From a virus, in IMG/VR virus record IMGVR_UViG_3300020576_003639, positions 1 through 64,000 of that record: DNA of 64,000 nucleotides; one strand, 5' to 3'. The translations under genes and the position numbers were made by a program. Shown one piece after another: positions 3,969 to 43,700 of the stretch. A model generated the notes under the pieces. It searched no databases and was not told where the DNA came from. It worked only from the letters and a program-made list of their open reading frames with translations. Each line of letters starts with the position of its first letter. Position 1 is the stretch's first letter.

Positions 3969-4547
3969 ATGAATGAAATTTGGACACCAATCATATGATT
4001 TGAAGAAGATTATGAAGTAAGTAATCTTGCAAGAGTTCGAGCTTTTAGAGATTCTTGAATAAAATATGTTGCTCTTAATACCTTAAAAAGTTGATATACA
4101 CAAGTATCTCTTAGAAAGAATTGAAAACAATATACATTTTATATTCATAGATTAGTATGAATTCATTTTGTAGATAATCCAAATAATTATCCATGTGTAT
4201 TGCATAAAAAAGAATCAGACCCTATGGATGATACTGCATGAAATTTATTTTGGTGAACACATAAAATGAATACACAAGATATGTATTCAAAAAATAGAGA
4301 TAATAGTTGGCTTAGAAAAAATCATCCAATGAAATGAGTATTTTGAAAAGATAATCCACAGAGTAGAAAAATCTGAAAATATTCTAAACAATGAAAACTT
4401 ATTGATATTTATTATTGAGTTCGAGAAGCTGAAAGAATTACATGATTATCTCGATCAAATATTTCTCAATGCTGCAGATGAAAAGCTTATAAAACCGTAT
4501 GATGATTTATATGGAAATATATTAGTGATGACTGCATCGTGGGTTAA
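3969..4547 (+). CDS. HNH homing endonuclease (NUMOD4 + HNH_3 type) with C-terminal HTH
   Basis: WTPIIGFEEDYEVSNLARVRAF...GYTQVSLRKNGKQYTFYIHRLVGIHFVDNPNN...VLHK...NL.WGT. C-terminal GLSRSNISQCCRGKAYKTVGGFIWKY. Nine TGA=Gly. Confidence 0.7.
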
Positions 4548-5709: not shown

Positions 5710-6295
5710 GTTTGATCTCTTAAAGCAATTCGCATCTGAGAACAAATTGAACCTACTCGATTCTATCCCAAGAGATTGGGATAGATATTGAGATGGTATT
5801 TGATCTGTGACTGCATTACTGAAACTCTTTCAGGAACCTGGATTTGAATATGTGAAAAGAAACTATGCTGATGAGGTAGCTGTCGCTTGTAAAAGGGGTA
5901 CAGATATTCATCAATGAGCAGAAGATTTCTTCTCGTGAGTATCGGATGATATTTATAAACAGATTCTTAAATTCCATGTTCTCTATGATTTTAAGATACA
6001 CGCCCAAGAACAAAGAGTATTCAAAGACATTAGTTGATGAATCGATGTGATCGGAAGTAGCCCCTTATTATCTAATGGGGTTTTAGTAAATGTAGATTAC
6101 AAAACAAATATCAAACAGAATGTAAAGTATAAAATTCAGATGTGAGGATATAATTATCTGAACGGAAATCCTGGATATATTCTTTATATGAGCGATAAAA
6201 AGTTCGAGCTAGTAGAAGTGGAGATGGATATCTATCTACCACTCTTTCTCGAATTAAAAGAATACTTTTTTTACTTACTAAAATTTCAAGCATAA
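5708..6295 (+). CDS. PD-(D/E)xK-family nuclease (lambda-exonuclease/Cas4-like)
   Basis: GTDIHQGAEDFF ... IDVIGS ... VNVDYKT gives a D...(D/E)xK arrangement. Six TGA=Gly. Confidence 0.45.
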
Positions 6296-12644: not shown

Positions 12645-13382
12645 ATGATAGAAATTACACCTGAGAATTTCATTGAATATCTTCAGAATCCCTGACAGAT
12701 TAGTAAATGTTATTCTGCGTTTCATAATTATTCCACATTGAATCAATGGTTGGCAGCCTCACAGTGTCTACAGATTTGACCACTGAACACATTCAAATGA
12801 TGGGAGAAGCTTGGTAGGCATGTAAAGAAATGAGAGCGTGCTATCGCCCTAATAATGCCTGTTATTACGAAGGAGAAAAACGAGAAGTGAGAAGACGAAA
12901 TTAAATCTATGTTCTTTATGCCTCGTAGAAACTGGTTCACTGTCTATCAAACTGAAGGTGATGAGTTCATTCCTGAAGTACCTGGCTTTGACTTCACTCG
13001 TATAGATGAAGAACTCCAACTCGAAAGAGTAGAGTTCAATCATACAGATGGAAATTGCCAGGGATATGCTTCAGGGAATAAGTATGCTATTAATCCTGTA
13101 GCTGCGAATCCTATGAAGACTATGTTCCATGAAATGGCTCATATACTTCTTGGCCATACTGACATGCCTATGTCTGATAGTACCACGCTTGCGCGCGATA
13201 TCAAAGAATTCCAAGCTGAATCTGTAGCATTAATCTGTGCAGCCATTATTGGACAAACAGATGAGCTGAAGTATTCACTTGGATATATTCAAAGCTACTG
13301 AATACCAGAGGTTTTGGATAAAAAGATGATAGAAAAACTTTTTTCCGTATCAAATAAAATAATAAATGCTTGTAAAATTTAA
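12645..13382 (+). CDS. ardC: ArdC-like antirestriction protein (N-terminal ssDNA-binding DUF1738-like domain + HExxH metalloprotease domain)
   Basis: N-terminal ...LNQWLAASQCLQIGPLNTFKGWEKLGRHVKKGERAIALIMPV and C-terminal HEMAHILLGH. ORFs 12645 and 12909 are in phase and joined via TGA. Confidence 0.5.
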
Positions 13383-13449: not shown

Positions 13450-13974
13450 ATGGAAGAATGGAAAATAATTGGTAACTCTGTTTATGAAATTTCTAACTAT
13501 TGAAATGTGAGATCTAATTCTCATTTTCATAAGTGATCTTCTTATAAGAAATTACTTCGAAAAACTAAAACTTGATATCATCAGGCTTGTTTATATGTTT
13601 GAAAAAAACATATATATCCTTATATCCATAGACTTGTTGCTTTTTATTTTATAGAAAATCCTAATTGATATTTAGAAGTAAATCATATTGATTGAGATAA
13701 ATCTAATAATCATTTTTCTAATTTAGAATGGACTACTAGAAAAAATAATATGAAACATGCTTTTGCATTAGGATTAAATAAATCTCCTTTAACTTGAAAA
13801 TTTTGAAAAGATAATCCATTATCTAAAAAAGTTTATCAGTATAAAGATTGAATTCTTATCAAGGAATTTGATTCTTTAACTCAATGTGCTAATGAATTAT
13901 GATTTGATTTATCTGATTTATCTAAAATAGTAAGATGAATCAGAAAACATAAACACTTTACATTTACTTATTAA
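13450..13974 (+). CDS. HNH homing endonuclease (NUMOD4 + HNH_3)
   Basis: MEEWKIIGNSVYEISNYGNVRS...GYHQACLYVGKKHIYPYIHRLVAFYFIENPNGYLEVNHIDGDKSNNHFSNLEWTT. Confidence 0.7.
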
Positions 13975-22569: not shown

Positions 22570-22842
22570 ATGGATCATTACACACAAATGTCTAATCGAT
22601 TGACTGAATTAAAGTCATATCCAAATCCTACTAAGGAGCAACTCACTGAGATTGTTTCAATACTTGAAGGCATTATTGAATGAGTATGACCTAAGGTAGT
22701 AGCAGTTCCTTTTACTATAGAGGACTGTGAAGATCTTCGAGACTGAGGATCATTCGAATGGGAGTTCAATTGAGTCACGCTTGATATCTACAACTGTGAT
22801 ACTGATCCTCGGGATGATGAAGATGAAGATGTTCCATTCTAA
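22570..22842 (+). CDS. small acidic hypothetical protein
   Basis: 90 aa. Confidence 0.3.
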
Positions 22843-22858
22843 TATTAATCTTATTCTT

Positions 22859-23179
22859 ATGAGACTCTGGGAATTTTCTGATAAATTAATAAAAGAATTA
22901 TTATTCGGTGACTCATTTTATTTTGAGGTTACTTGAGTAACTAATCGAACTAGTGCATATCATATAAATGATAAGAAATCTATTAAACTATTCACTGTTC
23001 ATTTATATAAATGTTGTTGAAGTGATATTACAGAACTAGAATCTTACATCCAAAAAGAACTTGAACTTGTAAAAGAATCTAGAATTGATTTCTCTATCAA
23101 GAGTACAGAACAATTTACTTTTTATGTAAAAACAAAATGTAATAAAAATAAAGTTACTGTTTATGTAGATGCTGAATAG
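22859..23179 (+). CDS. hypothetical protein
   Basis: 106 aa. It ends at the TAG of the recurring TAGCCTACAAATACTGAT motif. Confidence 0.3.
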
Positions 23180-23231
23180 CCTACAAATACTGATTCAGTT
23201 TCGTATAGAAAAGAAATCATTTTGTTCCCTT

Positions 23232-23258
23232 GTCTATACCATTTGGTATAGATTTTTT
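23232..23258 (+). terminator. rho-independent terminator
   Basis: tctatacc-attt-ggtataga hairpin followed by ttttttaat. Confidence 0.5.
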
Positions 23259-23269
23259 AATCCTATTAT

Positions 23270-23425
23270 TATGGACACACTTATCGGACTCGCTATCATA
23301 GCTTGAAGTATCTTCTCTTCAGTATACACACTTGGTATATGGGAAGAGATGCCTAAATGGTTGAAGGTTACTTCAGGTATTATGAATGTAATCTTTATGG
23401 TTATATTCTTCTACCTCGCTCATAA
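23270..23425 (+). CDS. small membrane protein
   Basis: 51 aa, hydrophobic. Confidence 0.3.
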
Positions 23426-23524
23426 GATGTAGCCTACAAATACTGATTTAGTAATTGAGGTACAGATCAGAGCAATAAATTTTTTTGGAATAGCATTTGC
23501 TATTCTTATTTTAACTTCACTATT

Positions 23525-23896
23525 ATGGAAGTAATCGCATGTTCAGTTGAATCAGTACAAGCACCAGTTATATCAGTTCGTGAGCCTCGTGTTGAACGAA
23601 AGTTTGAAGGCATTGAGAATGTCCTCAACTATTTGGTTGTCTCTCGTGACATCAAAGTGTATTCTGTTATGTCTCATCTCCCTGAATCTGAAGCTACGGA
23701 TATGAAGACAGGAGAAGTTAATACTCTTCCTGAAACTGTTTCATATCAGGTGAAGAAATGATTCTTGAATGTAACCGCTAGCTGATCTATCTTCCACAAG
23801 AACAACTGACGGAAGGAGAATGTTGGTTACATCAACGATGAAGGAGTTCCTGCAATCACTGATAAGTGAGCAAAGATCCTTCTCGCCATTAGTTAA
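23525..23896 (+). CDS. hypothetical protein
   Basis: 123 aa via TGA readthrough. Confidence 0.3.
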
Positions 23897-23954
23897 TACT
23901 ACCTTGGGACTACAGGAAACTGTAGTCCTTTTGGTATTCTTAACCCTTAATACT

Positions 23955-24110
23955 ATGTCTCTTTACGGAACTAAAAACATCTCGACATCTCGTGCAAAAT
24001 CTATTAATGAAATGCAAGCTCGTGAGTCTGCATCTCGTCAAGCTACTCGAGAATCTATGGCACATGCCACTAAGATTAAGCGTATTGATAGACTCGTTAC
24101 AATCGGGTAG
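23955..24110 (+). CDS. small hypothetical protein
   Basis: 51 aa, polar and basic. Confidence 0.25.
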   Translation: MSLYGTKNISTSRAKSINEMQARESASRQATRESMAHATKIKRIDRLVTIG

Positions 24111-24117
24111 TAAAATC

Positions 24118-24150
24118 TTCTGCCTCTTTAGGGAGGCAGGTATTTTATTA
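24118..24150 (+). terminator. rho-independent terminator
   Basis: ctgcctc-ttta-gggaggcag hairpin followed by gtattttattatt. Confidence 0.55.
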
Positions 24151-24163
24151 TTAAATCTGTATT

Positions 24164-24343
24164 ATGAAATCGTTCATTATCACATTCTTCACTTATTCTA
24201 TGTATGTAATATCATTATCTACCATAGGATTAGGTGCGTTAACTATGTTCGTACCTATTGATCACTCTGTCATCATAGGATTACTTCTTATTCTTATAGG
24301 AGGAAGAACATTCTTGGAGATAAGAAAACTTCTAGGCATATAG
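24164..24343 (+). CDS. small membrane protein
   Basis: 59 aa, hydrophobic. Confidence 0.3.
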   Translation: MKSFIITFFTYSMYVISLSTIGLGALTMFVPIDHSVIIGLLLILIGGRTFLEIRKLLGI

Positions 24344-24365
24344 CCTGGATTTTTTCGGAGATCCA

Positions 24366-24393
24366 CCATCCTCCCCGACCACCACCCTAGTCT
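24366..24393 (+). repeat. 28-bp GC-rich direct repeat, copy A (CCATCCTCCCCGACCACCACCCTAGTCT)
   Basis: Exact second copy at 25169-25196. It forms a C-rich island in AT-rich DNA. Confidence 0.8.
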
Positions 24394-24517
24394 TTTTAAG
24401 TATGAAAAACATTTGCAATTGATACGGATTTTCATATAATAAAAGAAAGAAATCAAATTAGTTTGAGTCTTCATAAATGTGGTTACAATTATTTGTAATT
24501 GGTTGCGGAGATCCTCG

Positions 24518-24568
24518 AGAAAGAGAGATAATAAATGACATTCAGTCAGGAACTTATCTCTCTTTTTT
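24518..24568 (+). terminator. long hairpin + T-run (terminator-like)
   Basis: agaaagagagataa ... ttatctctcttt followed by ttttag. Confidence 0.4.
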
Positions 24569-25088
24569 AGTTGTTCGCTCTCGGGGGAACTGATACTATG
24601 TATTCAATCCATTGGAATCCATATATTATAATCTCTATATATATCTCATAGTATTATATCTCTTCCTATTCATTCCTTATAAGAAGAATAGAAGGGATTG
24701 CCCCGTTGCTCCGTTGCCCTGAGACCTATAACACTCCTGACTACAAACGACTTACTGAGAGAGAGATTACAGTAATCTATACAGGGACTATGTTACTGAA
24801 GTCTTTGTTAAATACTAATATTAGTGTATGATATAGAATAAGAAAACAAAAGGTGAGAGGGGAGTACTCCCACAATACTCTTTTTTTGTTTCTCTTATCC
24901 TACTATCAAACTATATTATACAATATATTATACCACAAATAGCATCGCTTTTCTCGTGGTTATATCAACTTATAGATAGTGCGTTTTATTTATAGCACTA
25001 GGCTAAAGGTTGCTTGACAACTTTTAGCTAATTATTTAATGTCAAGTATTACTATTATTATCTTATTATTTATTCCTTACAGCAGGTA

Positions 25089-25121
25089 ACTTGTTTTATA
25101 TATTACCTGTTTTTTGTGATT
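25089..25121 (+). terminator. hairpin + T6 (terminator-like) inside the non-coding region
   Basis: caggtaa-cttgttttatatat-tacctg followed by tttttt. Confidence 0.45.
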
Positions 25122-25168
25122 AGTTCAGAGAGTAGGAGAGTATGGTAGGAATCTAGTTATCAGTTCCG

Positions 25169-25196
25169 CCATCCTCCCCGACCACCACCCTAGTCT
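25169..25196 (+). repeat. 28-bp GC-rich direct repeat, copy B
   Basis: Identical to 24366-24393. Confidence 0.8.
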
Positions 25197-25457
25197 ACGC
25201 AGGTTCTCTCAACTAAAACTTTGCTATCCTTTCTCAAAACAACAGAGGTTCATTCTAAAGGAAACTTCCCTTCCGCAAAGGTAAGAGATCTGATGTTATA
25301 AAGTAAGCGGATACGACGGCGTGCGCAGCACAGAACAATGCAACTTGCCTACTTGTCCCCAAGTAGTACAGATCATAAGACGTAAAGTCTTATACAGGAA
25401 AGAGAAAGTTCTTAGCTATTAGTTTCTCGCTAAAGAAACTAATCATTAAATATAATA

Positions 25458-25708
25458 ATAAAAAAACACAAATCAAAAAACAACAAACACCAATATAAAA
25501 AAACAAAAAAACATTTACTTAGTTAATTAATATCAAAAATAACTTGGGACCATAACACTCTAGAGAGAGAACTATATTAATATCTCAGTGTGTATATAAT
25601 AATACTATACCCTATCTATCTATCTATATATATTATTTTTATTTTATTTTATTATTTTTTTAGTTTGTTTTTTGTGTTGTGTTGTTGTTTTGTGTGTTTA
25701 GTGGGGGG
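25458..25708. repeat. strand-asymmetric low-complexity block: A/C-only tract, (CTAT)n microsatellite, T/G-only tract ending in G7
   Basis: aaaaaaacacaaatcaaaaaacaacaaacacc ... ctatctatctatctat ... gtttgttttttgtgttgtgttgttgttttgtgtgtttagtgggggg. Confidence 0.7.
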
Positions 25709-25778
25709 TATATGTGGACCAGTGAGTGTATGATGTAGGTTAGTAGGCAAGTGGTCAACTATTTTTTGGACAATATAC

Positions 25779-26504
25779 CTAAATATACTTCCATTGATAT
25801 CATCAATGGAATTTCCTTTCTCACCTACAACACTTTCTAATAAGAGATCAAGTATATCAATCTCAAACATCATTAGCTCATTCATATATATTTATTAAAA
25901 TTCATTCTTTTGAAAATTTTCCAACACATTTTTTTGGATTATATATTTTTTTAAAATATTTATTTACATTTATTTCATTATCATGGGACCATATATATCA
26001 TCAAAATCTATGAGACTTATATAATCTAGCAAGAAATGATCTTTTTTTAAATAGATTTACAGTAATAACTTCATCAACCGATTTATACTTTTTAATAAAA
26101 TTTCATTCCAATGAATATTGAAATATTGGAGTACACTTTTTAAATGTAATAATACCACATCATCTTGCATGAATAGAATTTTCTTTGGCAGTACACCATT
26201 CTAAGGCCCACCAATAGTTAAATGTTTTAATAGCAGTAATATGATTCACTTGAGTATGAAAAGATTCTTTGAAAAGAAAAGCATTAGCTACAAGTTTATG
26301 TATTCTATATAGTGAATGCTTTCATTTATGCTTAAATGAAACTTGTAGATATCATTTTGGATGAATATGATTAGGTACAAATTTTAAAGTATACATATTC
26401 ATAACTCTACCAAAAGAACTTATCTGATATTTATCATCATAACCCGGAATATCTTTCCAGATCTCTATAGTAAAGAATTGAAATAGTAGAAAGTAGTAAT
26501 TCAT
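25779..26504 (-). CDS. HNH homing endonuclease (NUMOD4 + HNH_3)
   Basis: Minus frame ...IWKDIPGYDDKYQISSFGRV...GYLQVSFKHKGKHSLYRIHKLVANAFLF...VNHITAIKTFNYWWALEWCTAKEN... Nine TGA=Gly. Confidence 0.6.
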
Positions 26505-26812
26505 AATAACAAAAAAAAGACCATTCATCTGCGAGAACGAATAGGTCTTTAAATAAAGCAAGATTGCTCCCTCTCGCAGTTGGGAATAATCTTATGAACG
26601 AAGTATATTGATAAGTATTACATAGTCAATATGATAAGTAGGTCAAAAAAAATAATCGCTTTGGTATCAGTATACATGGGGCATAATGCTAAGTATTGGA
26701 TTATCCGAATGCTAAGTGTTCAAAAATAAAAAATAGGATAGCCACATATAGAGCGCCAATAAAAAACCCCCGGGATTGTTCCTGAGGGCTTTTCTTCTAT
26801 ACGAGAATGTTT

Positions 26813-27337
26813 TTACGGTTCGAGAACGATCACATTTATGGTTGCTGTATCACTCGCAGAGAGAGTCACAGTAAGAGTAGTAGAGGTAATAGATGCACTC
26901 TTTACGAATGCAGTACCAGTTACGGCAGATACATGATATCCGAGGATTTGAGATGCCGCGATTACTGTAGCTGTACCGGAAGTAGCAGCGGTAATAGTGA
27001 CAGTTTTAACTGAGTACTTGAGTTTACTCTTCGTAACTGCAGCTGCAGCGAGTTCGTTAGTACCAACACCACCAGTAGGGATATCAAATGCACCATCTTG
27101 GTTCGTATCTTTATTCTCATTTGGGAGAAGTACCCATGCAGAACCAGACCAACGATATTTACGACCAGTAAGTTTATCCTCACGGACATCATCGATGTAA
27201 CGACCTGTAGGAAAACCTGTAGAACTTGGAGTACCTGAACCATCTACGATCCATGCAGAACCAGTCCAACGATATTTGAGTGAATCAGCAGGATCAACTC
27301 GAGTTTCGCCAACTCTTCGACCATTAGGGAGAGCCAT
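26813..27337 (-). CDS. virion structural protein (tail-fiber or decoration-like) with no TGA codons
   Basis: MALPNGRRVGETRVDPADSLKYRWTGSAWIVDGSGT...KYRWSGSAWVLL... and a Thr/Ser/Ala/Val-rich beta tail. GC-richer codon usage and zero TGA. Confidence 0.5.
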   Translation of the reverse strand: MALPNGRRVGETRVDPADSLKYRWTGSAWIVDGSGTPSSTGFPTGRYIDDVREDKLTGRKYRWSGSAWVLLPNENKDTNQDGAFDIPTGGVGTNELAAAAVTKSKLKYSVKTVTITAATSGTATVIAASQILGYHVSAVTGTAFVKSASITSTTLTVTLSASDTATINVIVLEP

Positions 27338-27376
27338 ATAAAAAAAGAAAAGAAATAAAGGGACATAAATAGTATA

Positions 27377-27391
27377 TGGCAATAATTGCCA
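27377..27391. promoter_or_regulatory. inverted repeat TGGCAAT-a-ATTGCCA about 40 nt upstream of the structural gene start
   Basis: Perfect 7-bp arms. Operator-like. Confidence 0.3.
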
Positions 27392-28126: not shown

Positions 28127-28702
28127 TTAATATTTCCAAATAAATAATCATGCAGTTTTCTGCCCTCATCTTGCACACCTAGAAATTCAAGATCAATGTA
28201 TTCATAAAAATTCTCATGCTTCATAAGCTGATCAGTATGTCTTGATTAGATTTCAATTTAAATCATATTGAGATACATTTTTTGATGTTGGATGATTTGA
28301 TCATTTTTTTCATTCCCAAAATTTTGGATGTTTAGTTTGAAATATATTATTAGCAACTCAATGCTTATATTGATCTAATACATTTGAACTTCTAGTACCA
28401 TATCTCAAGTTATCAGGATGATTATTTTTTGGATTACCATCATTATGACAAACTTCCATTCATTTAGGGCAAGGTCATTCTTTTATAAGCATAACTATTT
28501 GATGAATTCAAAATGATTTTGATAATCAATGTTTATATAATGCAGTTTGCATGTGTCATGATTTTCAAATTCATAATGACATTATTTTAACTTTTCAATT
28601 GTATAAACTTCTGATCTGATTAGTAGAAATTTTTATTTCATAAATCCAATCATATCATGGAATTTTTATCCAAGAATCAACATCTATTGTTTTTCGCTTC
28701 AT
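28127..28702 (-). CDS. HNH homing endonuclease (NUMOD4 + HNH_3)
   Basis: MKRKTIDVDSWIKIPGYDWIYEIKISTNQIRS...GHMQTALYKHG...IHQIVML...EVCHNDGNPKNNHPDNLRYGT...GISRCARGGQKTAGLFIWKY. About 17 TGA=Gly. Confidence 0.65.
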
Positions 28703-31465: not shown

Positions 31466-31540
31466 TGGAGCTACTAGAAAGACTTGAACTTTCACACCAA
31501 GATTTGCAGTCGAGTGCATTAACCTTTCTGCCATAGTAGC
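31466..31540 (-). tRNA. tRNA-like element with a GCA (Cys) anticodon and an imperfect anticodon stem
   Basis: Minus-strand 75 nt: perfect 7-bp acceptor stem gctacta/tagtagc, D-loop with GG, T-arm gaaag-ttcaagt-ctttc, discriminator U + CCA, anticodon loop ctGCAaa. Two mismatches in the anticodon stem. Confidence 0.4.
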
Positions 31541-32598: not shown

Positions 32599-32673
32599 TG
32601 GAGCGAAACGCGGGATTCGAACCCACGATGCCGGATTTGAAATCCAGAGTCTTAACCGCTAAACGAGTTTCGC
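32599..32673 (-). tRNA. tRNA-Gly with UCA anticodon (reads UGA)
   Basis: Minus-strand cloverleaf: acceptor gcgaaac/gtttcgc (G1:C72, C2:G71, G3:C70), discriminator U73 + CCA, T-arm gtggg-ttcgaat-cccgc, anticodon stem ctgga/tccgg with loop ttTCAaa. The Gly identity elements point to Gly and not to Trp or Sec. Confidence 0.75.
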
Positions 32674-32834: not shown

Positions 32835-32910
32835 ATGGTTCGGGAGGTAGGATTCGAACCTACGATCTTTGGATTATGAGACCAATGAGTTGACCACTTC
32901 TCTACTCCCG
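32835..32910 (-). tRNA. tRNA-Met (CAU), initiator-like C1xA72
   Basis: 76 nt: acceptor ccgggag/ctcccga with a C1:A72 mismatch, T-arm gtagg-ttcgaat-cctac, anticodon loop ctCATaa, CCA end. An Ile-lysidine (CAU) identity cannot be excluded. Confidence 0.65.
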
Positions 32911-33077
32911 GAAATAATTATAGTATTTTTATTTTTCACTTAAATCTTTTTTTAACTCAGTTGTCACTTATTCAAAAATGAATTCATGCAGATCATACTG
33001 AATCTTTTCATACGGGGAAATCTAGTATATATGGATTATATTTTATTGATTCTGTTGGTAGTGAGAAAATCATATGA

Positions 33078-34221: not shown

Positions 34222-35055
34222 ATGCTCGATCAAGGTTACGGCATTATGCCAAATTCCATTCTTTTTAATAAAGAACTTTCAGATAAAGAAAAATTACTCT
34301 ATTGTCTGATATCGAGTTTATGTGCAAGTGAATGACATTCATGGGCCACGAATCAATATCTTTGAGAAAAGCTATGATTACATAAAGATAATATTTGAAA
34401 GTATCTATCTAAGATGGCAAAATCATGAATTATATTTCTACAAGATATTAATAATACAAGATATATCACAATATGTAAGATAGACGAAAACGCCTGGGGG
34501 GGTAGGTGAATTCACCTAGGGGGGGTAGACGAAAACACCTACCCTATATATAGGATGAATAGTATAAGTGAAGAAGATAAAGGAAAAGAAGAAACTTCTC
34601 ACATAGAAGAAAAGAATTCAACAGAGAAGTCTACAAAAAAGCTTTCTTCTTCTATACGAAAAGGTTCCAAACCTATCAGAGAAATTATTGTTCCGCCGGA
34701 AAAGCGATACATTGATGAAGTTCTCTGACAGAAACGATGAGTAGATAAGCTTTATGAGATACTTACTCTTCCTACGATGAAAGATTACGATGTTCTTGCA
34801 CTCGATGATAAAGAAGATCCACGATCATTCACGAAGATTATTTCTCTATACGAATGGCTTCTTGCATTCTTCCAGGAGAAATACGATGGAAAAATCTATA
34901 AAGACGATAATGGAAAAATGGTAGGATCAGGAATCATACTCAATGAACTCGATAAATTCATTGCATATTATTCCGAAAAAAAGGATGAAGACATTCTCGA
35001 TATCAAGGCAAGACTTCGAAAATGGGTTACAAATTCTCTCAAGTATGCGCTTTAA
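34222..35055 (+). CDS. phage replisome organizer / DnaD-like replication initiator (N-terminal wHTH)
   Basis: MLDQGYGIMPNSILFNKELSDKEKLLYCLISSLCASEGHSWATNQYLGEKLGLHKDNIGKYLSKMAKSGII matches the organizer N-domain pattern. Frame traced without a stop from 34222 through the G7 palindrome into the ORF starting at 34558. Confidence 0.55.
34481..34544. promoter_or_regulatory. ori-like element: direct iterons TAGACGAAAAC x2 flanking a palindrome cctGGGGGGGTAGGTGAATTCACCTAGGGGGGGtag, inside the replisome-organizer gene
   Basis: Repeats and palindrome read directly from the sequence. Confidence 0.5.
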
Positions 35056-35075: not shown

Positions 35076-36812
35076 ATGGTGGACATATTCAAAGAAATAA
35101 AAAATATAACTCTTACAGAAATCCTTGATAAGCTCTGAATCTTCTATGAAGTCGTATGAAATAATATCGAACTCTACGAAGGCGACAAACATACCGACTG
35201 ATGGCGTTGAGATATCGGATGAGGGTTTATCAAGGATTTTACTTGAAAGCGTGCACAGGGGGATAGAATCACTTTTGTGATGGGCTATCTTGGAATGGAA
35301 AAGGGTGAAGCAGTTCGATGGTTTAAAGATGAATTTCATCTTTATGATGATGGAGAGAAGGTAAATGTACGCCAAGAGATGCTTGCAATCGGTAGAGCTA
35401 CTATGGCAAAAGAGGAAACCGCATTAGCAGTAATAGAACCGAATCATGTTGATGTAAAGGCAAAGTGGGAAACAATGTGAGAACTTTCCCAGATTCAAAT
35501 TGATTATCTTACTTCTCGATCGGTAGATTATTCCAAGGTAAAAAGATATATTCGAAATAATATCTGATATGTTTGCTGTCCTGTTTCAGCGATATCATGA
35601 GCGAGTATCGATATGATCTCACTTCAAAGTCGTGATATTCATACTAAGAAATTCGTTATTGAGAAAGGAACACCAAGTAAATGATGCTTCATTTCTGCAA
35701 TAGATAAATCAAAAAAATATATCTATGTTGTCGAAGGAATGTTTGACTTTCTCACACTTGCACAGTACACAGATAATGTTATCGGTATGAAAAGTGCGAG
35801 TGATGGAGCTGATGTAGTAAAAGAATTTGCTAAGAAATGATATCTTCCGATTCTCATTCCCGATAATGATGAGGCAGGAAAAACTATGCTTACTTTGATG
35901 GCAAATGTCCCACATTCAGTATTCGATTTAGCTGAATACAATGTGAAAGACATCAATGAACTCCTGGTAAAATCAGAATATGGAGCATCTATACTCGAGA
36001 TTATTGAAGATCAGAGAACTCGACCACCACGAAATATCGATTCAGCTATGAAGAAACTTGATTCACTTCAAGCTCTTACTACCAAGCGATGACGACTCGG
36101 AGTTGATGGGCCACCTTCAATGAAGAAGATTACTGATCTGCATCAAGGAATTATTGAAGGGAAAGTATATACAATCTGAGCTTATTCAGGTCATGGAAAA
36201 TCTACACTCAGTTATGAGTATGCTTCATACTTTGTAAAGCAGAGAAAAAAAGTGCTATACTTTTCTGTCGAAGTAGATTCAGGATTACTTCTGAGTTATA
36301 TCGCTCGAAACTTTTACAAAGTTCCTCATAAAAGCATTATGGATCGTCAGCATAAAATCAATGCAAATGATTTTGATACACTTTATCTCTACGACAATGT
36401 TCGTGATCTCGAGACTATGAGTAAAATTGTTATGGAGGAAAAGCCTGATTATGTATTTATCGATTATGCACAGGGAGTTCGATGTGAATGAGCATGAATT
36501 TATGAAAAGACTACAAACTATGCACAGTCTATACAGGCATTGGCTATCGAAAGTAATGCAACTATCTTCTCGCTTTCTCAGCTCAATAACGATTCAAGGA
36601 ATAAAGATGGTGGAGATGTAACCCTTAAAGGATCAGGAGATCTATTCTCTGCAAGTGATGTAATCATTACTATTTCTAAGGATTGAGAATTTACAAAATG
36701 TGGTCTTATGAAAAATAAGTTCTGAAAAAAAGATTCATACTTTATTGAGTTTAATTACGATGTCGGAGGGCTTATGCTTATATCACAATCATATCAAAAA
36801 GATTGAGTTTAG
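35076..36812 (+). CDS. primase-helicase (TOPRIM primase + DnaB/gp4-like helicase)
   Basis: TOPRIM YIYVVEGMFDFLTLAQ and ILIPDNDEAGKTM. Helicase Walker A TIGAYSGHGKST (first Gly = TGA), Walker B VFIDYAQ, H3 SLSQLN, H4 GSGDLFSASDVII. Four track ORFs in one phase joined by TGA. Confidence 0.75.
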
Positions 36813-37718: not shown

Positions 37719-40700
37719 ATGGCCAACGATATTACAGCTCCACTAGAAGGTGCTGAAGCTCCTGGATTTTTCTCTCGAGGATGAGCGCTCGATAAAGGTA
37801 TACAATCAGTAGACTCTTTTTTCGAATGAGCAGCCAACATGGTTAAGGATACTACTGTAAAAGTAGTTACTTGACAATTTGATCTCAATCCAATGCTATC
37901 TGATCAGGATAAAGCAAAATATAATGTTCCACAACCGATCAGTGATAATGACCGAGCTCTGGCAAAAGAATCGAAAGCTATATCTGGTTGGCAGATGGCT
38001 AAAGATATTGGATGAGCTTTGATTGATTTTGGAAAAGATAAAATAGTATGAACAAATCTTTCCAGTAAATTGAATCAATGAATATCAGAAGATGACTTCA
38101 ATAAAACGATATCGAAATATCGTTGAGATATATCAAGCACGAATAAAATAATATCCGATATCATGTCCGCAGATCCTAAGTTTGCACAGTATCGTGATTT
38201 TGATTTTGCTTCTTACAAAAAATATCTTGATGCTAGGGGAATTACTTCAGTTCAAGATCCTGCAGATTATGAAGCATTTAAGAAAGCAGAAATGAGTAAG
38301 CTTAATGCTCTTGATCAACAACTCATTGTGTCCCAGTATCAGGAACTTCAGAATACTGTAAGTAAATATCAGCAACAGGCTCAGGCAAAACAAGCTGAAC
38401 TTGATTGATATCTCAACTCTGCAATCAAATGAGACTGAGAAAAAACTGGTGTACAGGTATTTGAGGATGTAGAAAAGGAATCACAGAACAGATTCAAGGA
38501 TAGCCAATACCTACAGTATAACCAAAAGGTAGCTACCTATGTTGACGAGATGGTCACTAAGGAACTCGAGAAAGATGGAAAATCAATATCTGGATTAGGA
38601 CAATCATTCACAAATCTTAAGGACTCTGTTGTGGAACAAATGACTGCATCTGAGATGTATCGTTTGGATCTTATCGGTATGGATGATCTTCCTGATAACG
38701 AAAAGTACGCGCAGATGTGGGGAGAAGCAAGTCAGAAATTCTACAACTTCAATTACGAGTTCATGCGTAGACTTTCTGCAGAGAAAGACAAGCCTGAAAA
38801 TAAATGAGTTGATGAGGTTGCGCTTCGTCAGAGAGTGCAATTAGAAACGTGGAGAGCTACTTCTCCTGAAGATAAAGAAAAGATGCGATGACGAGAAGCA
38901 TTAGCTACTGGAATTAATGCTATGGTAAATGCCAAACAATTGGGAGAACGTATTACTGATCTCAATCCTCAAGCTCTTCTTGATGGGCTATCTCTCGTAG
39001 GTACTACATTTCAATCCTATGTAGACCAAGCATTTGATTATAATCAGGAAATCCCACACTATATTCAGCAGGAGACTAGATCACTTCTTTATTCTGATGA
39101 GGGAAACCTCAGGAAATTTTGATCATATCTATCATACAATGCTGATGCTCTTGCATCGATGGCTATTCCAATAAAGGGAACTGGAATCGTGACTAAGGGG
39201 GTCGATAAGCTTATTGATGTACTCGCAAAGAATACAGATAAATTTGTCGGGATATCTACTAAGGTATGATTTACTCAATGATTTTTGAAGTTTATTCCAA
39301 ATGCAGCGAAGGGTATTTCTAATAGCCTAGTTAATGGAGCAGTAGGTGATCCAGTATTTGATAATCTCATGATGCAAGCGCCTACGGCTGCAGTTGAGAC
39401 AATGAATAATATTGCCAATCTATTCTTTGATGCCAGTCTATTTACTGGAGGTAAGTGACTTGTATACGGTTTAGAATGAACAAAAAATATGAATGGATTA
39501 ATGTTCAAGTTTCTCCACTGAGATGAGGCTGCAGCTGTTAAAGACTGGACTAAAGCATTCAATGATCACTATAATCCTGGACAAGCAATTAGCGAGGCAC
39601 AAGGTCGAGAGATTCTTGAGCAAGGCAAGAAGCTTTATGGTAACATGTATTCACCTCAAGAAATCAAAAAAACCTTCAATGAAAAATGAGGGATTTATCG
39701 TTATCTTGCGGACAATGTTTCCCAGATGACTGACTCTTGAATAAAAGAAGTACTCACTGGTAATGGTCTTGGAATTCGTATTGAGGATCTTGTAGGCATT
39801 CCAAGAAAAGAAATTGATAATCTCAATGGTCTTTTCGATGTTCATGCAAAAGTTTCTAATGATGAGACAAAGACTCGATTAGTATCGACTCGTATAGAAG
39901 AGAAACTCAATGCCATAAATGATTTTGTATCTAAGTGATCCCCTTATGATGATGTTATCATTCAGCAAAAGATGAGAACTAATCCTGAGTTTCTGAAGGA
40001 AGCAAAGGTAGTTGAAATAAAACTCGCTCAGATAAAGAGTCTTATGAAGGTTCCTAATTCTACCGATGAGATCAAGGGTCTTATTGGAGAAGTAGATGAT
40101 AGTATCCGTATGATGAAGGAGAACTATACCAATAGACAGTGGCCAACACAGGTCACGCTTGTAGATAGTGCATCCAAAAATGAAATCAAGATAGGGATAA
40201 AGGATCTCCGAGCAGATCTTGATGGAAAGAATTTCTCTGATATCGTAGCCGAAGGTCGTGTTACAATCAAGAAAGATACCAAAAATATCAAGCAATGAGA
40301 CTATTTCATCAAAGGAGCTGAGAACAATGTCTTTTCTTCTTATGTGGAAAGTTTCATGAAAAACATCGAGAATGATATTTCTGAGTTTGAAATAGCAAAT
40401 AATCTCGATCCTCTTACGGACAAGATTCGTCATTCTATTCAGAATGGTCTTCTCAATACTGGTAAGGTAGAGTTCTGATACCTTGCTAAATTTACCGGGG
40501 AGCAATATGATACTCAGATAAAGGCTCTTTGAGAATTCGTTAATAAGACTCTCAAGAATTTCTATGGTGAAAAATTTGTTAATCCTGAAGTACATTTTCT
40601 TGGAAAACAGCTTGTTAGTAATGAAGATGTAATAAAGGGATTCAATAATAATCCTGGATACATCAATCTCACATATGGTACATTTGCTAAGACAGATGAT

Positions 40701-43700
40701 GTTACAAAGATTACTGGTACAAAAAATATATTCTATGTATCTTTTGGAAAAGATATTGCTTCATCTGAAGTATTTGCCAAAAAACTCGATGGGAATCCTA
40801 AAGGAACATGAGCTACCGTTACTGCATATATCGCAAGCGCATCAAGTATCAACAAGCTTATTGTGAAATATGGCATTCAATCGGATTGATCTATTGATTT
40901 TTTCAAAGGGTTACAGAAGGCAAAGATTGTAGAATCTACAGCTAATGTAGATGGACTATTTATCGATTGAAAAATATCTCAATCAGCTATTGCAAAAATA
41001 CTTGATGATGCTATCAAGTGAGAAGATATGGATGATCTTACTAGAAAATGAATTCTTGACCTTGCTAATGGTCTATTCTCGGCATCAAGGCAAGAGGACT
41101 CTATGGTAATTAAGCCAATGATATATTCTCTAGTATCAAAATACTATGATAATAAGCCACTTATTGACGAGTTATTCACAAGATTCAGAATAGATAAGCC
41201 AGACTTCATCAAGGCATTTGCTGATATATTGATGAGTCCTGATACGTATAAAGACATTGCAGCGAAGATGGCATCTCGATGAGATCAAAAAGTTCTTACG
41301 GAATCATTCAGAGTAAAACATCAGCAAGCTTGGCTCGAGTATCATAATAGGCTTCAGTCTATTGTGGATAAACTTGATATCCAGATTGATGATGCTAAAG
41401 CCACGCGTAAGCTCACTGGATCAGCTGAGGCTCGAGAATTTATCGACATGAATATTGAAACTCTCAAGTCCAAAAAGTCTTCAGTACTCAAGGTAATGAA
41501 GAAAGAACAGGAGTTCAAGAATAATCTTCTCGAGAAAAATCTCCAAAATATCAATGTGGAATACTTGAAAAATATCTCTAATGATTTTTCTTTTACGAAA
41601 CTTCTTCGTAGAGAAAACCTAATAGGCAAAGGAAATCCAGAAGACCAACTCAAACAATATGTCTCAATGCGAGAACAGATCAAAGATCTCTATCCAAAGC
41701 ATAGAGATGTCTTTGATAGTCTCATTAGAGATATTGAGAAAGTCACTGATCCTATGGCTACTATGGCCGATCGTGCTAATCTTATCCAGAAATATGAGGA
41801 TATGGCGTTCTCATCTGATATTCTGAAGGATACCGTAGACAAGATGATTAGGCAGTATCTGTTTCCCCAGGATGGTATTTCTCTATACGATGTATCATAT
41901 CTCAGTAATATGATTGATTCGATGAAGGGAAAATACACTTATAATTTTGCCAAAGAAAATAACCCACTCAAGAAATGGTTATGAGGATGGATCAATAATA
42001 CGAACACCGGTCGTAATGATGTACTCGAGGCAAAGATCTCTGAGTATTTCAAAGAACCAACAGTCAAATCTGCTGATGAGATGTATGATAAGAATCCAGA
42101 GTTCAGAGATATGATTGATAGCCTTCGAGCTCAATCATCTTCAGAATGAGATGTAGATGTTCCAAAAGTCTATGTTAAGGCTATTCGTGATGGAAAAGAA
42201 TCTGTTCGAAAATTTATCTCTGAGATATTTCATAACATCGAGATAGATACCGATAGTCGTTGAAATATTAGCGCTGAGCTAGTGGATGACATATTAAATG
42301 AGTATGACATCATCAAGAAGCTTAAAGCCATCGCAAATCGCAAATTATCGAAGAATGATATCAATGTGTCGCTCATAGAGTGAGAAACAGAATTCGATAA
42401 GGTATTTTCAATCCGCAATGATAAGTACAATGAGAAGGTTCTTCAGATAGAAAACATGGAGAAAGCATGAATGAACTTCAGAGCTATCCGTGGATTTTCT
42501 GTAAACCAAGCATGATATATTAAAATTGGGGATACTACTCTCAACAAACTCTACGACCAGCATATAGTAGATTCTTTCATCAAAGATAAAGAGAATCCAA
42601 ATTTTGCTTACTCTACATCTTCAGAGAAGTATAAGCTTCTTACTAAGATTATAAATAATACCTTATCTGCTGAAGATTATAAAATATTAAATATTCAATG
42701 ATGAAAAGAGACAGTATCGTTAAATAAAATTAAAAATTTAATTGCTAAAAATGATAAGGAATTACTTACTAAGTATTTATCATTATCAAATAAAAAGTCA
42801 GACTCAATTGAATGAATCGTAGATTATATATCTTCTGATCTTAGATCTTGGATATTTGATTGAGATTGAACACTTAAAGAAAATATAAAAGCTAATTTAT
42901 CTGAAAAACAAATAGAGCAAAATTATAATACTTTTAAATCAAATTATTGAGAATGAAATAAGGATTTATTTGATTTTGAAGTATCTCTTATTAAGAAAAT
43001 ATATGAGAATATTGATTCTATAATTCAAGTAGAATGATCAGTTATTGATCGGAAATCAATTATTTCTCAGCTTGGAATCCCTGAGGATCATGTATTCGTA
43101 GGAAACTTTGGTGATAAAGATTCTCTCTACACTACTTACAAATCTGGTCTTGATATCTATACTGGTAAGGTTATTCCGGAAATAGAGGCATCCATCTACA
43201 AATATGAGTATGCTTTTGCTAATGGATATACTACTGGTAAGATGGAAAGTTTTGAACAATTCAAAAACAAGTTTCTTACAAAAAAGTTCTCTTCGTTCGA
43301 AGAATATAAGAACTATATGCATGATAATGTTTATGAAACTGTCAATGGAAAACGAGTGAACCAGTATATTCTTCCTCGTGATACTATCCGTAAGAGAGAG
43401 GCATTCAACATGAGTAACGATACTACTTTCGAGGATTATGTTGTGCCTACAAAGACTTATATCATCGAGAAGGAACTCAAGCAAATACCAGAACTCCAAA
43501 ATTTCCCTATGGTAAATGGAGAGTTTGATGGTGGAATAGATGATCTCATGAAACTTATCTCCGACTATCCTGAAAGTGAGGTAGCTACAGTTGTCCAAAA
43601 GAATTTGGATAACAATGTCTCAGTAGAGAAGATTATAAACTTTCTGAACACGACCTACAACAATGATCTTCAGGATGGTACTTCATTCGTATCCAATGAT

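What the first reader, a model, noticed from the sequence alone, without database searches (positions are those of the whole stretch)
24343..25779. 1.4-kb non-coding convergence zone: 28-bp GC-rich direct repeat pair, stacked terminator hairpins, palindromes, and an AC-tract/(CTAT)n/TG-tract block
No convincing ORF in either strand under code 25. Features read directly: the exact repeat CCATCCTCCCCGACCACCACCCTAGTCT at 24366 and 25169 (776 bp apart, C-rich and G-poor on the + strand, G-run-rich on the - strand); + strand hairpin+T-run terminators at 24518-24568 and 25089-25121; the palindromes gggagtactccc and agattacagtaatct; the tandem ccgttgc; about 55 nt of A/C-only sequence, then (CTAT)4-5, then about 48 nt of T/G-only sequence ending in G7. 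Possible roles: a bidirectional termination zone with a rut-like C-rich element, a structured ncRNA between the two + strand terminators, a replication-terminus or packaging element, or a small integrated element bounded by the repeats.
Basis: seen in the sequence. Interest (0 to 1): 0.65.

Follow-up and report, generated by a model that had tools for sequence, protein, structure and literature searches.

The report
Conserved non-coding RNA island in phage
This 1.4-kb gene-free stretch of a TGA-recoded phage is a conserved island that holds at least two previously undescribed small structured RNA genes, several transcription terminators and two unusual C-rich boxes; it is not junk, not an inserted mobile element and not an assembly error.

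Summary
The 28-nt repeat is exact at 24366 and 25169, an independent assembly reproduces it, and no ORF is conserved between 24344 and 25778 under code 25. Ten related phage sequences carry the same zone. It is conserved as well as or better than the flanking genes.

Three components are supported:
1. U1 (about 24447-24572, + strand) is a small RNA gene with a sigma-70-type promoter conserved in 9 of 9 close relatives, covarying hairpins and an intrinsic terminator.
2. A structured "core" RNA (25240-25365, + strand, extending to about 25445) has 11 base pairs changed on both sides across 11 genomes. It matches no Rfam family.
3. An invariant promoter-like centre (about 25505-25611) is flanked by A-rich and T-rich tracts that are not a hairpin.

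The repeats do not bound an insertion. Relatives with one box or none keep the DNA between them. What is conserved at both box sites is C-runs on + (G-runs on -). They are the two strongest G4Hunter peaks in the 64-kb window, also where the sequence is not homologous. Box function is unresolved.

The convergent gene arrangement is derived. In two distant relatives the right-hand gene follows the zone on the same strand.

The parts
24164..24343 (+). Last protein gene of the left module: a 59-aa predicted membrane protein. It marks the left boundary of the zone.
   Evidence: The ORF is kept at full length at 41-52% aa identity in L142, L143, L148 and L149, and at 98% in L147. It has no Pfam hit.
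24331..24355 (+). Intrinsic terminator of the 59-aa gene: TCTAGGCATATAGCCTGGA followed by T6. It is also usable on the - strand, where a U-rich tail follows.
   Evidence: The terminator scan found it. A hairpin is present at this position in relatives.
24359..24393 (+). C-rich box, copy 1 (exact 28-mer at 24366-24393). It lies 7 nt after the terminator T-run and 19 nt upstream of the U1 -35 element.
   Evidence: locate it. Its G4Hunter score of -1.76 is the strongest peak in the 64-kb window. It is present in L139, L142 and L147, degenerate in L145 and L149, and replaced by a different C-run element in L137, L143 and L148.
24413..24440 (+). U1 promoter: TTGCAA, 16 nt, TATAAT.
   Evidence: It matches 10 of 12 consensus positions. 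The -35 and -10 elements are conserved in 9 of 9 close relatives. L150 and L152 have a CATTTGCA..TATAAT promoter of the same type.
24447..24572 (+). U1 small RNA, about 125 nt. It has hairpin GGUUACA/UGUAAUU, the invariant stretch GGUUGCGGAGAUCCUCGAG, and a terminator hairpin (24520-24565) with conserved loop AUGACAUUCAGUCAG followed by a U-run. The start position is inferred from the promoter.
   Evidence: RNAalifold predicts 29 pairs, 6 of them with changes on both sides. 96.9% of cells are paired against about 50% in slid controls, and 12 double-change cells compare with 3.9 +/- 1.5 in shuffles, 0 of 500. G.U pairs fit only the + strand.
24573..24887 (+). Middle unit. It holds the conserved motif TCGGGGGAACTGATAC, a hairpin at about 24603-24620 with variable stem sequence, the CCGTTGC tandem (24703-24717), the palindrome AGATTACAGTAATCT (24764-24778), and a terminator GGGGAGTACTCCC (24853-24873) followed by T7 (24881-24887).
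   Evidence: The alignment of eight genomes (the window and seven relatives) shows these features. The GTACTCCC hairpin and T-run are conserved in all eight. It is terminator-like on both strands. Nucleotide identity is 70-92%.
25014..25047 (+). TTGACA, 17 nt, TAATGT: a promoter-like element, also readable as the hairpin CTTGACA..TGTCAAG.
   Evidence: It is conserved in L139, L143 and L148. L142 and L147 have TTGACA at an equivalent distance. Its function is inferred.
25080..25115 (+). Hairpin CAGCAGGTAAC..GTTACCTG followed by T6. This is a + strand intrinsic terminator or attenuator just upstream of box copy 2.
   Evidence: L137 has a compensatory U-A to C-G change. In L143 and L148 a non-homologous hairpin plus T7 sits at the same place.
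25125..25196 (.). Box copy 2 module. The invariant box (25162-25196, exact 28-mer at 25169-25196) pairs with a variable upstream purine-rich partner (about 25131-25157) to form a long hairpin.
   Evidence: The fold beats shuffles with z from -2.3 to -8.5 on the - strand, and from +0.7 to -4.1 on the + strand. A 17-pair consensus forms on the - strand and none on the + strand. Its G4Hunter score of -1.72 is the second peak of the window. It is present in all 7 class 1 genomes, including the window. A diverged form occurs in L152 and a short form in L150.
25240..25365 (+). Core structured RNA (model R1): six helices and invariant single-stranded motifs GAUGUUAU, GGAUxCGA and GAACAAUGCAACUU.
   Evidence: The model scores 137-159 bits in 9 genomes, 41 bits in L152 (E 5e-9) and 12 bits in L150. 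94.8% of cells are paired against 36-45% in slid controls, and 11 double-changed pairs compare with 2.4 +/- 1.2 in shuffles, 0 of 500. G.U pairs place it on the + strand. It has no Rfam match.
25366..25445 (+). 3' extension of the core: hairpin ATAAGAC/GTCTTAT (25375-25393), purine stretch GGAAAGAGAAAG that can close on CCUUUCUC (25226-25233), and hairpin TTAGTTTCT/AGAAACTAA (25419-25442).
   Evidence: The hairpins keep their position while their sequence changes: AAAGGAC/GTCCTTT plus a T-run in L143 and L148, ATAAGC/GCTTAT in L152, and GCACTT/AAGTGC in L150.
25449..25511 (.). A-rich, C-containing, G-free tract.
   Evidence: Composition was counted. Its sequence varies between relatives while its composition is kept. 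It is not complementary to the T/G tract beyond composition. It is weak in L150 and absent in L152.
25505..25611 (+). Near-invariant centre: TTAATTAATTAAT, TTGGGACCATAAC, TAGAGAGAGAAC, and AGTGTG-TA-TATAAT (-10-like hexamer at 25595-25600). It is the probable rightward promoter region.
   Evidence: It is almost identical in 8 genomes. The motif CTAGTGTGTGTGTATATAATAATA is retained in L150 and ACTGTGTGTGTTTATTATT in L152, where a gene follows on the same strand. Promoter function is inferred.
25612..25708 (+). (CTAT)4, then an AT-only run, then a T/G tract ending in G6 (25703-25708). It is the probable U-rich leader of the rightward transcript.
   Evidence: One search gives the counts. A T-rich tract is present in all relatives: T/G in most, T/C in L148 and L152.
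25779..26528 (-). NUMOD4 homing-endonuclease-like gene occupying a variable cargo slot. It is not part of the conserved zone.
   Evidence: Pfam NUMOD4 hit at 2.4e-11. It is absent from L139, L142, L143, L145, L147 and L148. The slot holds 3 tRNAs in L139, 6 tRNAs in L147, and another gene in L149.

Best explanation
The zone is a conserved island of phage non-coding RNA genes and transcription signals. It lies at the end of the leftward-encoded (+ strand) module of a family of roughly 57-69 kb phages that read TGA as glycine.

Reading left to right on the + strand:
1. The last protein gene ends in an intrinsic terminator.
2. A host-type promoter drives U1, a small RNA of about 125 nt with its own terminator.
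3. A less conserved middle unit ends in a third terminator.
4. A TTGACA promoter-like element and a fourth hairpin plus T-run precede a structured RNA. Its conserved core of about 126 nt folds into six helices.
5. A near-invariant promoter-like centre launches a U-rich leader to the right.

In distant relatives that leader runs into a structural gene on the same strand. In the window's lineage the right-hand block has been inverted, which created the convergent appearance.

The two 28-nt repeats are not ends of an insertion. They are two instances of a C-run element (G-runs on the - strand) kept at two fixed positions, each just downstream of a + strand terminator. I infer that they act as structure-forming punctuation of transcription. 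Candidate actions are a G-quadruplex or G-rich hairpin on the template or antisense strand, or a G-free C-rich RNA platform, either of which would stop or insulate read-through or antisense transcription around the RNA genes.

Shown: conservation, absence of coding, promoter and terminator motifs, RNA covariation, strand of U1 and the core, and the composition property of the boxes.
Inferred: actual transcription, RNA ends, what the RNAs do, and how the boxes act.
For: - Non-coding status: no conserved ORF in the zone, and indels of 1-2 nt occur in the conserved blocks.
- Conservation: window 25062-25787 is 82.6% identical to L142, where coding flanks are 68-71%. It is 93.7% identical to L145 and 86.7% to L149. 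The same architecture is found in distant L150 and L152.
- U1: promoter conserved in 9 of 9 close relatives, with covariation support.
- Core RNA: covariation support.
- Terminators: enrichment over shuffles, compensatory changes, and non-homologous replacements at the same sites.
- Boxes: presence and absence pattern. The two box sites are the top two G4Hunter peaks in the window and in most relatives, regardless of sequence homology.
- Orientation of the right-hand gene in distant relatives.
- No Rfam family matches.
Against: - There are no expression data, so none of the RNAs is shown to be made.
- Covariation rests on 11 sequences. Nine of them are close relatives. Most double changes come from L150 and L152, and the alignments were fitted to the model.
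- The strand evidence conflicts. U1 and the core fit the + strand, but the box copy 2 hairpin gives a consensus only on the - strand.
- The exact 28-nt identity of the box across genomes that differ by 12-30% elsewhere suggests a sequence-specific partner. A purely structural role does not explain that.
- The invariant centre and its AT-rich flank could be a DNA-level element rather than a promoter.
Confidence: 0.55

Rival explanations
1. The zone is a bidirectional termination zone that relies on Rho. The C-rich boxes, and the A/C-rich tracts met by transcripts entering from either side, would be rut-like loading sites that back up the intrinsic terminators where two transcription modules converge.
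For: - Both boxes lie 7-47 nt after a + strand hairpin and T-run.
- The boxes are about 65-70% C with a single G.
- Tract 25457-25511 is G-free on the + strand, and 25708-25663 is G-free and C-containing on the - strand.
- In some relatives, - strand tRNA clusters or genes end just to the right without an obvious - strand intrinsic terminator.
Against: - In L150 and L152 the elements exist without convergent transcription.
- Box copy 2 is sequestered in a hairpin.
- The boxes are only about 30 nt, shorter than typical rut sites (established knowledge of Rho).
- The A/C tract is weak or absent in L150 and L152, and the T-rich tract is T/C rather than T/G in L148 and L152.
- Whether the hosts encode Rho is unknown.
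- This model does not explain the covarying RNAs or the invariant centre.
Confidence: 0.2
2. The right half of the zone is a DNA-level element such as a replication origin or another protein-bound site. The invariant centre would bind proteins, the (CTAT)n and AT run would be an unwinding element, and the A/C to T/G switch would reflect strand asymmetry. The G-run boxes would be quadruplex-forming fork or polymerase barriers.
For: - The centre is near-invariant while its flanks keep composition but not sequence.
- There is an AT-only run at 25628-25662.
- Keto/amino skew flips sign exactly at the centre.
- L150 carries 9 copies of AATCCC across its zone.
- The boxes are the strongest G4Hunter peaks.
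Against: - A better origin candidate exists: G7-TAGGTGAATTCACCTA-G7 at 34495-34526, inside the replication-initiator gene and conserved in L143.
- Cumulative GC skew shows no extremum here beyond what gene orientation gives.
- No iterons occur in the window's zone.
- The centre carries a -10-like TATAAT and is followed by a same-strand gene in L150 and L152.
- Contig ends of relatives do not fall here.
Confidence: 0.15
3. The two 28-nt repeats are the attachment-site or target duplications of a small element (775 bp) that inserted into the phage genome.
For: The repeats are exact, direct and 803 bp apart. Homing endonuclease genes lie nearby.
Against: - No relative lacks the segment.
- Genomes with one box or none keep homologous inter-box DNA at 70-92% identity.
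- The segment encodes no recombinase or any other ORF.
- Copy 2 is part of a conserved hairpin upstream of the core RNA.
- The box recurs in L150 and L152 in the same relative positions.
Confidence: 0.02

Closest known systems
Phage-encoded small RNA genes with their own promoter and intrinsic terminator (for example lambda OOP, P22 sar, P1/P7 c4)
   Same: Both are short, independently transcribed units with a sigma-70-type promoter, a structured body and a hairpin plus U-run terminator. Both sit between protein-coding modules. This comparison applies to U1.
   Different: There is no sequence or Rfam similarity. No antisense target was identified: U1 pairing with the box region is no better than shuffles. 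In L150 and L152 the same promoter drives a 29-aa ORF instead.
Large phage-associated structured RNAs GOLLD and ROOL (Rfam)
   Same: Both are non-coding, structured, carried by phages, and found next to tRNA clusters in some genomes (L139 and L147).
   Different: There is no match to either model even at E up to 10. The conserved core here is only about 126-200 nt. The zone is punctuated by terminators rather than being one large fold.
Lambda nutL/nutR and HK022 putL/putR (two copies of a conserved cis-acting RNA box per phage genome that modify termination)
   Same: Both involve two near-identical copies of a short sequence on the same strand of a phage genome, placed next to terminators. The sequence is conserved far better than its surroundings.
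   Different: The boxes here lie downstream of terminators, not upstream. They have no boxB-like or put-like stem-loops. No N-like or Q-like antiterminator was identified. Non-homologous C-run sequences can replace them. This is a resemblance from memory and was not tested.
G-rich termination element CSB II of human mitochondrial DNA (PMC4176368, PMC3488243)
   Same: Both are short G-run elements in an AT-rich genome. CSB II forms a quadruplex during transcription when the G-rich strand is non-template, and that stops transcription. The boxes would behave this way for leftward (- strand) transcription.
   Different: The system and polymerase are different. The main box has only two runs of three or more G. 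No quadruplex formation was tested. A link to replication priming is not indicated.

Membership tests
Rfam families (GOLLD, ROOL, group I/II introns, tmRNA, RNase P, 6S, riboswitches, ribozymes) | A score at or above the family's gathering threshold with its covariance model | tested here: not met
   Only 3 tRNAs were found in the window, all elsewhere. In 24000-26000 at E up to 10 the only hits are chance eukaryotic miRNA and snoRNA models far below threshold. Relatives give only tRNAs.
tRNA or tmRNA gene, or its 3' end (the box contains ..CCCGACC-A-CCA) | A cloverleaf or tRNA-like domain with T-arm and acceptor stem | tested here: not met
   ARAGORN finds nothing in the zone. No complementary 5' acceptor strand lies upstream. 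The 22-mer core is absent from 185,579 GTDB genomes.
Intrinsic (Rho-independent) terminator | A G+C-containing hairpin followed directly by a U-run on the transcribed strand, with the hairpin maintained in evolution | tested here: met
   7 sites were found against 1.1 expected. The stems at 24520-24565 and 25083-25109 covary. Non-homologous hairpins plus T7 sit at the same sites in L143 and L148. Termination activity itself was not tested.
Sigma-70-type promoter (U1) | -35 TTGACA-like and -10 TATAAT hexamers 16-18 bp apart, conserved in position | tested here: met
   TTGCAA-16-TATAAT at 24413-24440. Both hexamers are conserved in 9 of 9 close relatives. Transcription start was not tested.
Structured non-coding RNA (core, U1) | Base pairs maintained by compensatory changes above background | tested here: met
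   Core: 11 double-changed pairs against 2.4 +/- 1.2, 0 of 500 shuffles; 94.8% paired against 36-45% slid. U1: 12 double-change cells against 3.9, 0 of 500. Caveats: few and related sequences, and a model-fitted alignment.
Integrated mobile element bounded by direct repeats | Empty sites in relatives, and a recombinase or transposase | tested here: not met
   There is no empty site. The inter-repeat DNA is retained where the boxes are missing. The segment has no ORF.
CRISPR repeat or solitary repeat unit (anti-CRISPR RNA mimic) | Identity to a host CRISPR repeat | tested here: not met
   The 22-mer core has no match in the GTDB genomes or IMG/VR. This applies only to hosts that are sampled there.
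G-quadruplex-forming sequence | Four or more G-runs with short loops; absolute G4Hunter score of about 1.2-1.5 or more | tested here: met
   Scores are -1.76 and -1.72 in the window and up to 2.36 in L143. GGGTGGGTGGGCGGG occurs in L150. This is in silico only. The main box has mostly two-G runs. Folding was not tested.
Rho utilisation (rut) site | About 60-80 nt of unstructured, C-rich, G-poor RNA upstream of Rho-dependent 3' ends, in a host that has Rho | not testable with these tools
   The composition fits. The boxes are about 30 nt and copy 2 is paired. Host Rho status is unknown.
Replication origin | Iterons for the initiator together with an AT-rich unwinding element | tested here: inconclusive
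   An AT run is present. The window's zone has no iterons, while L150 has AATCCC nine times. A stronger candidate lies at 34495-34526 inside the initiator gene.

The most novel reading that the evidence does not exclude
The island encodes a new class of phage RNA machinery specific to phages of Gracilibacteria or Absconditabacteria-like hosts. In this reading the core RNA is a functional RNA with its own activity, for example ligand or protein binding, or catalysis. Its long invariant single-stranded motifs suggest this. The conserved C-run/G-run boxes would be quadruplex or hairpin switches that gate its transcription or block antisense transcription. That would be a structure-based insulation system not described for phages.
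Probability: 0.15. Interest if true: 0.75.

Novelty: new member of a known kind. Interest (0 to 1): 0.5.

Why it matters
Phages of the candidate phyla radiation are known almost only from predicted proteins. The paper I checked on phages of these hosts (PMC10746230) mentions no non-coding elements, and I found no other report. This work gives the following:
- Two testable RNA families with defined coordinates, structures and a covariance model. Neither is in Rfam.
- A promoter consensus for a host group without cultured representatives or Shine-Dalgarno sites.
- A clear example where the same genomic positions keep G-run/C-run elements although the sequence is replaced. This suggests that non-B DNA or RNA structure is under selection in an AT-rich phage.

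It also shows that about 2% of a compact phage genome is held non-coding across divergent relatives. That DNA is likely to be important for the infection programme.

Tried and rejected
- **Host tRNA, tmRNA, attB or CRISPR origin of the box.** ARAGORN finds nothing and the box is absent from GTDB and IMG/VR.
- **18-mer metagenome scan.** This was a poor choice of mine. One low-GC contig (L106) shares a 25-mer, but there it lies inside an ORF that I read by eye as methionine-aminopeptidase-like (untested), so I judged it chance.
- **Small ORFs in the zone.** All frames on both strands give hits because the DNA is conserved, but frames break between relatives. The 84-codon frame across U1 is broken by a 1-nt insertion in L137 and L147.
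- **U1 as antisense regulator of the box region.** Duplex energies are no better than shuffles, z from -1.6 to +0.9.
- **Box as anti-Shine-Dalgarno or ribosome decoy.** This phage has no SD motifs; 3 of 64 starts have anything SD-like.
- **AC tract pairing with TG tract as a giant hairpin.** Not better than composition predicts.
- **Similar DNA in phage GenBank records.** None found.
- **IMG/VR exact scans with window-family 21-22-mers.** None found. A gapped motif found L152, plus one false positive, L151.
- **Viral-contig relatives of the 174-aa protein (L002-L016).** These are too distant and are not syntenic.
- **Literature on code 25 phages and on Rho distribution.** Nothing bears on this zone.
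Full report
**Context**

The window is a phage genome fragment that reads TGA as a sense codon. Open frames cover 87.9 kb when TGA is recoded, against 15.5 kb under table 11. A tRNA with anticodon UCA lies at 32599-32673.

PHROGs places a replication initiator at 34222-35055 and a primase-helicase at 35076-36812. A 4052-codon ORF and structural genes follow. The terminase, portal and capsid labels used elsewhere in this report for the ORFs at about 50-57 kb are my reading of size and gene order: PHROGs gave no named match for them. Genes run on the + strand up to 24343, on the - strand from 25779 to about 33.4 kb, and on the + strand again after that. Start codons have no Shine-Dalgarno motifs.

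**The observation**

The 28-mer is exact at 24366 and 25169, none of 100 shuffles had a match, and it extends to 35 nt at 94% identity. A Logan contig from another run (L001) is identical to window 22703-27243, so the repeat is not an artefact of one assembly. Terminator-like sites are enriched (7 against 1.1 expected). There are minor corrections. The 'A/C-only' tract contains 4 T. The T/G tract ends in G6, not G7. The gap between the repeats is 775 nt.

**Relatives**

The 96-aa ORF at 23820-24110 and the 174-aa ORF at 26813-27382 led to ten related sequences:
- L137, L139, L142, L143, L145, L147, L148 and L149 are close to moderately distant.
- L150 is distant.
- L152 is a further distant relative found with a gapped motif.

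The five whose contig is close to full genome length (57-69 kb) show a gene-poor gap of about 1.5-2.8 kb at this place. The short contigs L137 and L139 show the same homologous non-coding sequence.

The zone is conserved as well as or better than the coding flanks. Window 25062-25787 is 82.6% identical to L142 where flanking genes are 68-71%. It is 93.7% identical to L145 and 86.7% to L149.

No ORF is conserved inside the zone. Because the DNA itself is conserved, every frame gives hits, but frames break between genomes. The conserved blocks also contain 1-2-nt indels. The 59-aa ORF at 24164-24343 is real: it is full length at 41-52% identity in distant relatives. It sets the left boundary.

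On the right, the slot between the T/G tract and the 174-aa gene is variable. It holds a NUMOD4 homing-endonuclease-like gene in the window, three or six tRNAs in L139 and L147, another gene in L149, and nothing in the others.

**U1**

A promoter TTGCAA-16-TATAAT (24413-24440) is conserved in all nine close relatives. It is followed by about 125 nt that contain three things:
- a hairpin whose stem changes from UUACAA/UUGUAA to GUUAU/AUAAC;
- an invariant stretch GGUUGCGGAGAUCCUCGAG;
- a terminator whose stem covaries while its loop AUGACAUUCAGUCAG is conserved, followed by a U-run.

On nine sequences, 96.9% of cells pair against about 50% when partners are slid. Twelve cells carry changes on both sides against 3.9 +/- 1.5 in shuffles, 0 of 500. 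Numerous G.U pairs fit only the + strand. In L150 and L152 a promoter of the same type drives a Lys/Pro/Cys-rich ORF of about 29 aa instead.

**Core RNA**

The most conserved block starts at box copy 2. A covariance model of 25240-25365 scores as follows:

| Genomes | Score |
|---|---|
| Nine close genomes | 137-159 bits |
| L152 | 41 bits (E 5e-9) |
| L150 | 12 bits (E 0.013 in 4 kb) |

In the two distant sequences the single-stranded motifs GAUGUUAU, GGAUxCGA and GAACAAUGCAACUU are kept. The helices are changed on both sides:
- UCCGC/GCGGA becomes UCCCA/UGGGA or CCAA/UUGG.
- GUGC/GCAC becomes UCAG/CUGA, with a hairpin inserted in the loop.
- CUACUUG/CAAGUAG becomes UCCUUU/AAGGAA or UACUUUU/AAAAGUA.

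On 11 sequences, 94.8% of cells pair against 36-45% slid. Eleven pairs are changed on both sides against 2.4 +/- 1.2, 0 of 500. G.U pairs that would be A.C on the other strand place the RNA on the + strand. In L143 and L148 the hairpin after the core is followed by a T-run, which makes a + strand terminator.

Rfam has no match.

Caveats: the sequences are few and related, the alignment is fitted to the model, and most double changes come from two genomes.

**The boxes**

The distribution of the box is as follows:

| Genomes | Boxes |
|---|---|
| Window, L139, L142, L147 | Both copies |
| L137, L145, L149 | Only the copy 2 position |
| L143, L148 | Neither |

All of these genomes keep the DNA between the two sites. 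The inserted-element idea therefore fails.

At the copy 1 site, the genomes without the box carry other C-run sequences. An example is CCCACCCACCCCTAGCCCCTCCCT paired with GGGAGGGG, with a compensatory change in L137. At the copy 2 site, L143 and L148 carry a long perfect hairpin followed by CACCCAAACCACAGCCCCGCAACCC. L150 has the box after a terminator and about 20 nt upstream of a perfect promoter, plus a short second version CCCGCCCACCCACCC. L152 has CCACCACCTTCCACCGACCACCACCC about 120 nt upstream of its core.

A G4Hunter scan shows that these two sites are the two strongest peaks of the whole 64-kb window (-1.76 and -1.72). They are also the strongest peaks in most relatives' loci, whatever the sequence. 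In L145 the copy 1 site ranks only fourth, and L152 has a single peak at its one box. The conserved property is therefore C-runs on the + strand and G-runs on the - strand.

In class 1 genomes, box copy 2 pairs with an upstream partner that differs between genomes. The fold beats shuffles with z from -2.3 to -8.5 on the - strand and from +0.7 to -4.1 on the + strand. A 17-pair consensus exists only on the - strand. I cannot reconcile this with the + strand assignment of the core, other than by proposing that the G-rich strand acts as DNA or as antisense RNA.

The exact sequence identity of the box across diverged genomes also hints at a sequence-specific partner, which I did not find.

**AC/centre/TG block**

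The centre (about 25505-25611) is nearly invariant in eight genomes. It ends in AGTGTG-TA-TATAAT. The flanking A-rich and T-rich tracts change in sequence but keep their composition. They are no more complementary than their composition predicts, with z from -0.4 to +1.4.

L150 and L152 keep the GTGTG...TATAAT-like motif and the T-rich tract. In both, the homologue of the 174-aa gene follows on the same strand, 0.7-1 kb downstream of the core. I read the centre as a rightward promoter with a U-rich leader. I read the window's convergent layout as the result of an inversion of the right-hand block.

**Alternatives**

- A Rho-based termination zone fits the composition. It does not fit the non-convergent relatives, the short paired boxes, or the covarying RNAs. 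Host Rho status is unknown.
- A replication origin fits the invariant centre, the AT run, the skew flip and the AATCCC repeats of L150. However, a better candidate is the palindrome G7-TAGGTGAATTCACCTA-G7 at 34495-34526, inside the initiator gene.
- A packaging site or genome terminus has no support.

**Verdict**

The zone is a conserved non-coding RNA and transcription-signal island with two new RNA families and two conserved G-run/C-run elements of unresolved function.

Noticed in passing
window 34495-34526: The palindrome TGGGGGGG-TAGGTGAATTCACCTA-GGGGGGGT lies inside the replication-initiator gene (34222-35055). It is conserved in L143 at 6205-6236, and a related repeat GTCTACCCCCCC occurs twice in L147 at 4886-4933. 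It is a likely origin of replication, as in lambda, where ori lies within gene O.
   Followed up: partly
window 32599-32673 (- strand); also 31466-31540 and 32836-32911: A tRNA with anticodon UCA (ARAGORN calls it SeC) lies beside tRNA-Cys and tRNA-Met. It is probably the phage's own TGA decoder. L149 has the same tRNA, while L143, L145 and L147 show only tRNA-Met in the fetched loci.
   Followed up: partly
window 25779-26528 and 28127-28702 (- strand); by eye also 3969-4547 and 13450-13974 (+ strand): The window carries several free-standing HNH/NUMOD homing-endonuclease-like genes. The one at 25779-26528 has many in-frame TGA codons and only a NUMOD4 hit, and it is absent from six of the seven relatives that cover this slot (L149 carries an uncharacterised gene there).
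   Followed up: partly
L150 7392-7484; reverse complement of L152, positions 601-687: A tiny Lys/Pro/Cys-rich ORF (MACKTTPKKAPMKSSPMKKGSTCKPGKKGC in L150, MAKCAPKKSMPVPGKKGGACKPGKKGCK in L152) sits behind the U1-type promoter in the two distant relatives, in the place of the U1 RNA.
   Followed up: no
L150 8400-9570: The motif AATCCC (TAATCCC) occurs nine times at irregular spacing across the zone of L150. It does not occur in the window's zone. It looks like iterons or protein-binding sites.
   Followed up: no
L106 421-445 (contig SDBS01000626.1, 28% GC): An exact 25-mer of the box (CCACCATCCTCCCCGACCACCACCC) lies inside a coding frame that I read by eye as methionine-aminopeptidase-like (...NFGVVVGEDGGLTTNQ...; no family search was run). 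It may be a 10-aa insertion relative to typical homologues. I judged it chance, at about 1-3% given 120 core hits, and did not resolve it.
   Followed up: partly
L145 5419-6145, L147 5767-6795, L148 8405-8683, L149 5632-7387 (equivalent to window about 29-33 kb, - strand block): Relatives carry genes with precomputed Pfam hits to anti-defence families (Tad2-like; Acb2/Tad1 hairpin, weak; WDGH) and a Bac_DNA_binding protein in the block next to the zone.
   Followed up: no
L145 about 12653-13158, and L145/L149 insertions within the middle unit: Insertions of about 450-500 nt with no obvious gene occur at two places in the zone in L145 and L149. The spacing between the conserved elements is therefore flexible.
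   Followed up: no
window 37719-49877: A single 4052-codon ORF lies between the replication genes and the terminase-like gene. It is conserved in length (3934-4045 aa) in relatives, with no Pfam hit on record.
   Followed up: no
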